Under the pieces are notes generated by a model. It saw nothing but the letters and a program-made list of their open reading frames with translations. It was not told the DNA's origin and made no database searches. A stretch of 64,000 bases of DNA from a virus (Duplodnaviria > Caudoviricetes): the IMG/VR virus record IMGVR_UViG_3300011008_000025, positions 31,036 to 95,035 of that record; one strand, 5' to 3'. Both the position numbers and the translations under genes were made by a program. Each line of letters begins with the position of its first letter. The stretch's first letter is position 1. This document shows positions 18,879 through 18,936 of the stretch, one piece after another.

Positions 18879-18936
18879 CCCACGACGCCCCGGGCAGGGG
18901 CGTTTCGTCGCAATTTTCAGCGACTCATCGGGCGGG
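18879..18936 (-). ncRNA. type I hammerhead ribozyme (U4C core variant)
   Basis: CCCGC-CCGAUGA-GUCGC(UGAAAAUU)GCGAC-GAAAC-GCCCC(UGCCC)GGGGC-GUC^GUGGG; all three stems pair. Confidence 0.88.

What the first reader, a model, noticed from the sequence alone, without database searches (positions are those of the whole stretch)
18879..18936. Hammerhead ribozyme with a non-canonical CCGAUGA core in the early transcript
Seen: complete type I topology 15 nt after the stop of the first early gene, with three paired stems, GAAA and a GUC cleavage triplet; predicted cut between 18884 and 18883. The usual CUGAUGA reads CCGAUGA (U4C). Established: hammerheads occur in Firmicute phage intergenic regions, and their role there is unclear. 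Inference: self-cleavage separates the first cistron from a ~220-nt downstream RNA that carries a tiny ORF and ends at a terminator.
Basis: partly seen in the sequence, partly recalled or inferred. Interest (0 to 1): 0.75.

Follow-up and report, generated by a model that had tools for sequence, protein, structure and literature searches.

The report
Phage hammerhead ribozyme with C4 core
This is a genuine type I hammerhead self-cleaving RNA motif sitting between two phage genes; it belongs to a very large phage hammerhead family, and its one odd core letter (C instead of U at position 4) recurs in that family, so the element is mostly ordinary with one modestly interesting twist.

Summary
On the minus strand, 18936..18879 has all three stems, GAAA, a GUC cleavage triplet (cut predicted between 18884 and 18883) and a CCGAUGA core.

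- **Not chance.** It is the only descriptor hit in the 95-kb phage genome. In 582 dinucleotide shuffles there were 0.057 relaxed hits per genome and none as good.
- **Rfam misses it.** Nothing reaches gathering score. Hammerhead_1 gives 15.6 bits against a cut-off of 34.
- **A family model finds it.** A covariance model built from 57 canonical (U4) phage relatives sharing its stem II (GUCNN-UGAAAAUU-NNGAC) scores it 60.8 bits, E about 1e-14.
- **C4 recurs.** It is the commonest core deviation in that family, about 6-11% of members. It occurs in at least 8 unrelated stem contexts with intact, covarying stems. A or G never occurs at this position.
- **Orthologues agree.** One related phage locus (L181) keeps C4, and another (L186) has U4.
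- **Conserved module.** All three loci share hammerhead, hairpin reusing the 3' strand of stem I, second hairpin, RBS, 33-35 codon ORF and terminator.

Most likely it is an active, possibly slow, hammerhead that releases a mini-mRNA. Cleavage is untested. U4C was already known from a viroid. I file it as a new member of a known kind, of moderate interest.

The parts
18879..18936 (-). Type I hammerhead motif with a CCGAUGA core. The model match runs 18937..18878.
   Evidence: Sequence read. Only descriptor hit in the genome. Model R1 from 57 U4 relatives scores 60.8 bits, E about 1e-14, and this is its only hit in the window and in the genome. Rfam Hammerhead_1 gives 15.6 bits, below its gathering score of 34.
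18925..18931 (-). Core C3 C4 G5 A6 U7 G8 A9. C4 at 18930 replaces the consensus U4.
   Evidence: C4 is seen in 14 of 129 and 7 of about 126 family instances. A or G is never seen at this position.
18907..18924 (-). Stem II GUCGC/GCGAC with loop UGAAAAUU, the signature of a large phage hammerhead subfamily.
   Evidence: At least 119 viral contigs carry this stem-loop flanked by the hammerhead core.
18885..18906 (-). G12 A13 A14, then stem III (A15.1 CGCCCC, loop UGCCC, GGGGCG U16.1).
   Evidence: Stem III differs in sequence but stays paired in L001, L181 and L186.
18883..18884 (-). Predicted scissile bond: C17 (18884) then G1.1 (18883).
   Evidence: Position follows from the hammerhead numbering applied to the sequence. 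This is inference; cleavage was not assayed.
18860..18883 (-). Hairpin A: the 3' strand of stem I (GUGGG) pairs with downstream CCCAC. It is either a competitor fold or a product hairpin.
   Evidence: It covaries in the orthologues: GCAGG/CCUGC in L181 and GCAGG/CCUGU in L186. Folds with stem I enforced or with hairpin A enforced differ by no more than 1.4 kcal/mol in all three. The 3' product hairpin is about -7.9 kcal/mol.
18821..18852 (-). Hairpin B (UAGCGCC...GGCGCUA), directly before the RBS.
   Evidence: The stem is UUGCGC/GCGCAA in L181.
18703..18819 (-). RBS GAAAGGGGG (18819-18811) and a 33-codon mini-ORF (18804-18703 including the stop). There is no AUG, GUG or UUG start in the window copy.
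   Evidence: The same frame is open in the window, L181 and L186. The peptide GYYTQxGxWGW...RYILFATE is conserved with synonymous changes. L186 has a UUG at the aligned start.
18667..18693 (-). Intrinsic terminator ending the roughly 220-nt downstream RNA.
   Evidence: 11-bp stem, 8 G-C pairs, T run. Conserved in L181 and L186.
18951..19859 (-). Upstream ORF of unknown function, given at its maximal extent. Homologues of 227-286 aa suggest a later start.
   Evidence: No Pfam or PHROG match.

Best explanation
The element is a genuine type I hammerhead ribozyme of the large phage and prophage subfamily whose stem II is GUCNN-UGAAAAUU-NNGAC.

**How it would work.** It is transcribed as part of the leftward mRNA, 14 nt after the stop of an unknown-function gene. 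While it is being transcribed, stems II and III form and then stem I, and the RNA cleaves itself after C17 (18884). This leaves the upstream gene's mRNA with a 2',3'-cyclic phosphate end. It releases a roughly 220-nt RNA with a 5'-OH end.

**After cleavage.** The freed 3' strand of stem I then refolds with the downstream CCCAC into a 5'-terminal hairpin. That would block religation, would probably stabilise the RNA, and would place hairpin B, the RBS and the 33-codon ORF in a defined 5' context ending at the terminator.

**The C4 letter.** C at core position 4 is a naturally tolerated pyrimidine variant of the U-turn. It probably lowers the cleavage rate rather than abolishing it.

**Shown here:** motif, family membership, covariation, recurrence of C4, and conservation of the module.

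**Inferred:** cleavage itself, its rate, and the roles of the hairpins.
For: - The motif is complete and is unique in the genome. 582 shuffles gave 0.057 relaxed hits per genome and none as good.
- Model R1, built only from 57 U4 relatives, gives 60.8 bits, E about 1e-14, and this is its single hit.
- L001, an unrelated phage, has the identical core (also C4) and stem II. Its stems I and III are wholly different but paired.
- The orthologous loci carry a hammerhead at the same place with a compensated stem I (CCCGC/GUGGG against UCCUGC/GCAGGA). L181 has C4 and L186 has U4.
- In the family, position 4 is U or C only: 115 U and 14 C, 119 U and 7 C. G5, A6, G8, G12, A13, A14 and A15.1 never vary.
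- 11 of 14 C4 copies have both stems, against 96 of 113 U4 copies.
- C4 copies have U4 siblings, for example L049 with L022, L079 with L010 and L030, and L154 with L121.
- Fifteen C4-only copies show 2-4 Watson-Crick or G-U wobble pair types at most stem positions.
- Literature: a natural U4C viroid hammerhead cleaves less well in vitro yet supports infectivity (PMC3088659, citing Ambros and Flores 1998). Hammerheads flank genes in prophages and cleave polycistronic transcripts (PMC3088659).
Against: - No Rfam hammerhead model reaches its gathering score. RF00163 gives 15.6 bits against 34.
- In a type III hammerhead, all single mutants of the CUGA turn had low co-transcriptional activity (PMC9901934). 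This copy could therefore be very slow or dead.
- The alternative hairpin is slightly more stable than stem I in the window, -29.9 against -28.5 kcal/mol.
- Most relatives have an A-rich stretch, often UAAAA, just 5' of stem I. The window has GAGAG instead. If that stretch makes a tertiary contact, the contact is missing here.
- Only three orthologous copies of the module were found, and the stems in my family sets were partly selected by the descriptor.
Confidence: 0.75

Rival explanations
1. It is a decayed relic. This was once a functional hammerhead, U4C has inactivated it, and the RNA is not cut. The hairpins now act only as structure in a read-through leader for the mini-ORF.
For: U-turn single mutants have low activity in a type III hammerhead (PMC9901934). 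U4C considerably decreases in vitro activity (PMC3088659). The competitor hairpin is slightly favoured thermodynamically. Rfam models score the site below threshold.
Against: C4 is kept in the orthologue L181, with compensatory changes in stem I. C4 copies keep their stems about as often as U4 copies. Only C, never A or G, replaces U4, and the other core positions do not decay. All other core letters and the GUC triplet are intact here.
Confidence: 0.15
2. It is a tuned kinetic switch. C4 and the nearly isoenergetic competitor hairpin are selected together so that only a set, or condition-dependent, fraction of transcripts is cleaved. That fraction sets the ratio of read-through mRNA to released mini-mRNA.
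For: The two folds differ by no more than 1.4 kcal/mol in all three orthologues, and the competitor covaries with stem I. C4 is retained in two of the three orthologues.
Against: L186 has the same competitor hairpin with a canonical U4, so the two features are not tied together. Product hairpins are not enriched across the wider family: 17 of 85 members, against 15.8% in shuffles. There are no rate data.
Confidence: 0.08
3. It is a chance resemblance. Two G+C-rich hairpins, for example attenuator or terminator-like structures, happen to be flanked by hammerhead-like letters.
For: The window is rich in hairpins. Rfam gives no significant hit.
Against: None of 582 shuffles gave a hit as good. 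The family model gives E about 1e-14. Stem II and its loop are identical to more than 100 hammerheads. There are orthologous hammerheads.
Confidence: 0.02

Closest known systems
Type I hammerhead ribozymes of phages and prophages (Perreault et al. 2011, PMC3088659; Rfam RF00163 Hammerhead_1)
   Same: Three-way junction with stem I open. Core G5 A6 N7 G8 A9, G12 A13 A14, A15.1-U16.1 and C17. GUC/GAC start of stem II and ACG/CGU start of stem III, as in the RF00163 consensus. Intergenic position next to short phage genes.
   Different: C instead of U at position 4. It scores 15.6 bits, below RF00163's gathering score of 34. The Rfam models also miss the canonical members of this subfamily.
RAGATH-1 hammerhead (Rfam RF03152)
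   Same: It is the best-scoring Rfam model for the canonical relatives, at 22-44 bits. It is a type I phage-associated hammerhead with an A-rich stretch 5' of stem I. The relatives sit in neighbourhoods with Hatchet, Pistol, Twister and RAGATH RNAs.
   Different: All of those hits are below the gathering score of 56.3. RAGATH-1 has an extra upstream hairpin and a short stem II. The window copy gives no RF03152 hit and lacks the upstream UAUAAAAU-like stretch. No other ribozyme class is found in the window.
Natural U4C hammerhead of a viroid (Ambros and Flores 1998, as cited in PMC3088659)
   Same: The same single core substitution. It is reported to reduce in vitro cleavage yet to be sufficient in vivo.
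   Different: That case is a viroid hammerhead working in rolling-circle replication (I could not open the original paper). Here the motif is type I, in a DNA phage mRNA, and the variant recurs in about 6-11% of one subfamily.
RiboJ-type synthetic insulators (hammerhead plus a downstream hairpin before an RBS). This comparison is from my own knowledge and was not checked in a paper.
   Same: The order ribozyme, hairpin, RBS. It would give the downstream ORF a defined 5' end that does not depend on the upstream sequence.
   Different: This is a natural element. The hairpin here reuses the 3' strand of stem I and so competes with the ribozyme fold. The function is untested.

Membership tests
Hammerhead ribozyme, type I | Three helices around the core, with stems II and III capped by loops and stem I open. 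| tested here: met
   Stems of 5, 5 and 7 bp counting A15.1-U16.1. The structure is matched end to end by model R1 and by RF00163.
Hammerhead ribozyme, type I | Conserved core C3 U4 G5 A6 N7 G8 A9, G12 A13 A14, A15.1-U16.1, H17. | tested here: inconclusive
   Every conserved core position matches except position 4, which is C rather than U. C4 is a recurrent natural state in this subfamily and is documented in a viroid (PMC3088659).
Hammerhead ribozyme, type I | Score at or above the Rfam gathering threshold (RF00163, 34 bits). | tested here: not met
   15.6 bits in a 101-nt search. Nothing appeared in the 64-kb or 501-nt searches. Canonical U4 relatives also fail every Rfam hammerhead threshold, so this reflects what the models cover.
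Phage hammerhead subfamily with stem II GUCNN-UGAAAAUU-NNGAC | A significant match to a covariance model built from canonical members, with the window and all C4 copies left out. | tested here: met
   60.8 bits, E about 1e-14, model positions 1-57 of 57.
Hammerhead ribozyme, type I | Stems supported by compensatory changes among homologues. | tested here: met
   Stem I is CCCGC/GUGGG here, UCCUGC/GCAGGA in L181 and L186, and GAUACC/GGUAUU in L001. Stem III is different but paired in L001 and L186. In the family alignment A1, 14 of 17 pairs change on both sides. That set was partly selected for pairing.
Hammerhead ribozyme, type I | Site-specific, divalent-ion-dependent self-cleavage 3' of position 17. 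| not testable with these tools
Published data on U-turn mutants point to reduced activity (PMC9901934, PMC3088659).
Hammerhead ribozyme, type I | A tertiary contact between loop II and stem I or its flanks, which gives fast cleavage at physiological Mg2+. | not tested
   Loop II (UGAAAAUU) is the family's standard loop, but I did not identify its partner. The A-rich 5' flank common in relatives is absent in the window.

The most novel reading that the evidence does not exclude
C4 is not a tolerated defect but a selected 'slow' allele of phage hammerheads. Together with the covarying hairpin that competes for the 3' strand of stem I, it would form a co-transcriptional kinetic switch. That switch would set how much of the transcript is released as a separate, 5'-hairpin-protected mini-mRNA for a conserved 33-35 aa peptide.
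Probability: 0.15. Interest if true: 0.6.

Novelty: new member of a known kind. Interest (0 to 1): 0.4.

Why it matters
Hammerheads in phage intergenic regions are common, and their role is still unclear. This copy adds four small but useful points.

- **Rfam blind spot.** The Rfam hammerhead models miss a whole abundant phage subfamily, canonical members included. A simple family model recovers them.
- **U4C is a recurrent state.** U4C is usually treated as inactivating. Here it is the single recurrent core deviation, about 6-11% of members. It is kept across orthologues with intact, compensated stems. That argues the U-turn tolerates C in natural, tertiary-stabilised type I contexts.
- **A compact test case.** The conserved order of ribozyme, stem-I-reusing hairpin, RBS, mini-ORF and terminator gives a small natural system for asking what phage hammerheads do to the downstream mRNA (stability, insulation, translation).
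- **A natural control.** U4 and C4 alleles of the same module exist in related phages (L186 against L181 and the window).

Tried and rejected
- **Rfam.** A gathering scan of the window and an E<=10 scan of 501 nt gave no hammerhead hit. Only a 101-nt scan gave a sub-threshold RF00163 hit.
- **Public phage records.** blastn of the region against GenBank phages found no match.
- **Upstream protein.** The search for related loci with this protein in viral contigs found no relatives. Orthologues came instead from the protein search.
- **Genome relatives.** The genome search 'relatives' is not available for a virus record.
- **More copies of the mini-ORF module.** The peptide was too short for the search for related loci. 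A degenerate back-translated pattern found nothing in viral or metagenome contigs. An invariant 16-mer gave only chance matches, and none carried the ORF.
- **Product hairpin as a family-wide trait.** It is not enriched: 20% of members, against 15.8% in shuffles. It is a feature of this module and of a subset of other members only.
- **MAFFT alignment of C4-only copies.** The 3' halves were misaligned, so I counted pairs by register in a script instead.
- **Original U4C paper.** Ambros and Flores 1998 (PMC147498) is not held. I cite it only through PMC3088659.
- **Compensating change linked to C4.** I looked by eye at N7, the 2.1-1.1 pair, H17 and the stem lengths and saw none. The sample is too small for a test.

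Full report
**1. The observation.** The minus strand from 18936 to 18879 reads as follows:
- stem I 5' strand CCCGC;
- core CCGAUGA;
- stem II GUCGC, loop UGAAAAUU, GCGAC;
- GAAA;
- stem III CGCCCC, loop UGCCC, GGGGCG;
- U, then C17;
- stem I 3' strand GUGGG.

Every element of a type I hammerhead is present. The only departure from the consensus is C at core position 4 (18930). The motif starts 14 nt after the TAA stop (18953-18951) of the upstream ORF.

I wrote a descriptor requiring stems of at least 4 bp, GAAA, A15.1-U16.1 and H17, and allowing at most one core mismatch. It finds this site and nothing else in the 95,035-bp genome on both strands. In 582 dinucleotide-preserving shuffles of the genome, such hits arose 0.057 times per genome. 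None had stems as long as the real one. The single-sequence fold is also more stable than shuffles (z = -2.85).

**2. Rfam against a family model.** Rfam 15 gives no hammerhead hit at gathering thresholds over the window. It gives none at E<=10 over 501 nt either. Only a 101-nt search yields a full-length match to Hammerhead_1 (RF00163), at 15.6 bits against a cut-off of 34.

This is a limit of the models rather than of the site. Canonical relatives also fail all Rfam hammerhead thresholds. Their best hits are RAGATH-1-hammerhead at 22-44 bits (cut-off 56.3) and Hammerhead_3 at 18-25 bits (cut-off 48.5) (same two values for L059).

I aligned 57 non-redundant relatives that all have U4 (A1) and built model R1 with the hammerhead structure. 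R1 scores the window site at 60.8 bits, E about 1e-14, over the whole model. That is its only hit in the window and in the whole genome.

**3. The family.**
- An exact search with the core plus stem II found an unrelated 81-kb viral contig (L001). It has the same CCGAUGA core and the same stem II. Stem I (GAUACC/GGUAUU) and stem III (ACACCUCAC/GUGGGGUGU) are completely different but paired. It too lies about 15 nt after a stop codon.
- Of 129 instances, 107 have stems I and III by the descriptor.
- Fixing only stem II and its loop showed that N7 is U, C or A, as expected for a hammerhead.
- Neighbouring sequence in several relatives contains Hatchet, Pistol, Twister-P5 and RAGATH RNAs. This is the known ribozyme-rich phage setting.

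**4. The C4 letter.**
- Positions 3-4 are CU in 113 instances, CC in 14 and UU in 2.
- In the set selected on stem II alone (about 126 hammerhead-like instances), position 4 is U in 119 and C in 7. Position 3 deviates 4 times and position 9 once. G5, A6, G8, G12, A13, A14 and A15.1 never deviate.
- So C4 is the commonest core deviation, and position 4 is never a purine.
- 11 of 14 C4 copies keep both stems, against 96 of 113 U4 copies.
- C4 appears in at least eight unrelated stem contexts. Several have U4 siblings at homologous loci: L049 with L022, L079 with L010 and L030, and L154 with L121.
- C4 copies also occur in contigs binned to several bacterial phyla.
- In 15 C4-only copies, most stem positions show 2-4 different Watson-Crick or G-U wobble pair types.

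Published work bears on activity. [quoted passage not shown] U4 contacts the A6-N7 phosphate (PMC3088659). In a type III hammerhead, all single mutants of the CUGA turn were of low activity (PMC9901934).

My inference is that C can partly replace U in the U-turn in these natural contexts, probably at a cost in rate.

**5. Orthologous loci.** The upstream protein has nine homologues.
- L181 (53% protein identity) has a hammerhead at the same position with CCGAUGA again. Its stem I is UCCUGC/GCAGGA and it has a quite different stem II. R1 scores it 32 bits.
- L186 (57% identity) has a canonical CUGACGA, the same stem I as L181, and a third version of stem II.
- L179/L180, L182 and L183 lack the element. 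So do L184/L185, where the only CCGAUGA-like string is not a hammerhead by R1's criteria or by eye.

The three-way alignment shows one conserved module:
- the hammerhead;
- hairpin A, made of the 3' strand of stem I and a downstream complement (window 18883-18860);
- hairpin B (18852-18821);
- the RBS GAAAGGGGG (18819-18811);
- a 33-35 codon ORF (18804-18703);
- an intrinsic terminator (18693-18667).

The ORF is open in the same frame in all three, with a conserved peptide and synonymous differences. Hairpin A covaries with stem I: GUGGG/CCCAC in the window against GCAGG/CCUGC in L181.

With stem I enforced or with hairpin A enforced, the predicted energies are:

| Locus | Stem I enforced (kcal/mol) | Hairpin A enforced (kcal/mol) |
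|---|---|---|
| window | -28.5 | -29.9 |
| L181 | -27.5 | -27.1 |
| L186 | -26.2 | -27.3 |

The two folds are therefore nearly isoenergetic. In L181 a terminator-like hairpin lies between the upstream gene and the hammerhead. In the window and in L186 there is none.

**6. Mechanism (inferred).** The 5' strand of stem I is made first. The ribozyme can therefore fold as soon as GUGGG emerges, about 20 nt before the competitor strand is transcribed. Cleavage would then separate the upstream mRNA from a roughly 220-nt RNA with a 5'-OH end. That end then folds into hairpin A (about -7.9 kcal/mol). This would prevent religation and probably protect the RNA.

This resembles the synthetic ribozyme-plus-hairpin insulator design (my own knowledge, not checked in a paper). 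Product hairpins are not a general trait of the family: 17 of 85 members have one, against 15.8% in shuffles.

**7. What was not tested.**
- That the transcript is 'early', or that the upstream gene is the 'first early gene'.
- The host. Earlier notes of this scan suggest an SPbeta-like phage of gut Firmicutes; I did not check this.
- Cleavage itself.

**8. Verdict.** This is a real hammerhead, a new member of a known and very large phage family. It carries a rare-looking core variant that is in fact recurrent, and it sits in a conserved ribozyme-plus-mini-gene module. My confidence that it is a functional, possibly slow, self-cleaving element is about 0.75. An inactive relic is at about 0.15.

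Noticed in passing
window 18703-18819 (-): A conserved 33-35 aa mini-ORF (GYYTQxGxWGW..RYILFATE..) lies behind a strong RBS. In the window it has no AUG, GUG or UUG start: the aligned start is ACG, or AUC one codon earlier. L181 has AUA or AUC there, and L186 has UUG.
   Followed up: partly
L014:683-6346 and L005:270-441: Relatives' contigs are packed with other ribozymes and ribozyme-associated RNAs. L014 has three Hatchet copies plus RAGATH-6, -7, -9 and -14. L040 has Twister-P5, and L003 and L033 have Pistol. L005 also has a tRNA array. The window itself has none of these.
   Followed up: no
L172 (Firmicutes bacterium CAG:95 contig), four sites within 8 kb: There are four copies of the exact core plus stem II unit (one C4, three U4). 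Two share the same 5' flank. My descriptor finds no stem I or stem III for any of them. They may be long-insert, split or degenerate hammerheads.
   Followed up: no
L014, L016, L026, L054, L084, L114 (5' flank ..GUAGAUAC): A homologous group of hammerhead cores shows C4, U4 and U3 variants. No stem III is found within 200 nt, so these may be discontinuous or have a very long stem III.
   Followed up: no
L075:5287-5400 and the matching site in L076: These hammerheads have a stem III insert of about 73 nt. L075 has U3 (a UUGAUGA core), which would give a U3-G8 wobble.
   Followed up: no
L065:3634-4600: Three hammerhead-like cores of this subfamily lie within about 1 kb of one viral contig, and one has C4. 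Both stems were found by the descriptor for two of them, the C4 copy included. This is the tandem arrangement flanking short genes described for prophages.
   Followed up: no
window 18821-18852 (+): Hairpin B read on the plus strand scores as an intrinsic terminator (14-bp stem followed by TTATTTTG). It could also stop convergent plus-strand transcription.
   Followed up: no
family-wide, 5' flank of stem I: Most members have a stop codon and an A-rich run (UAAAA or similar) immediately 5' of stem I, as in the RAGATH-1 consensus UAUAAAAU. The window has GAGAG instead. This may be a tertiary-contact element or simply the upstream stop codon.
   Followed up: no
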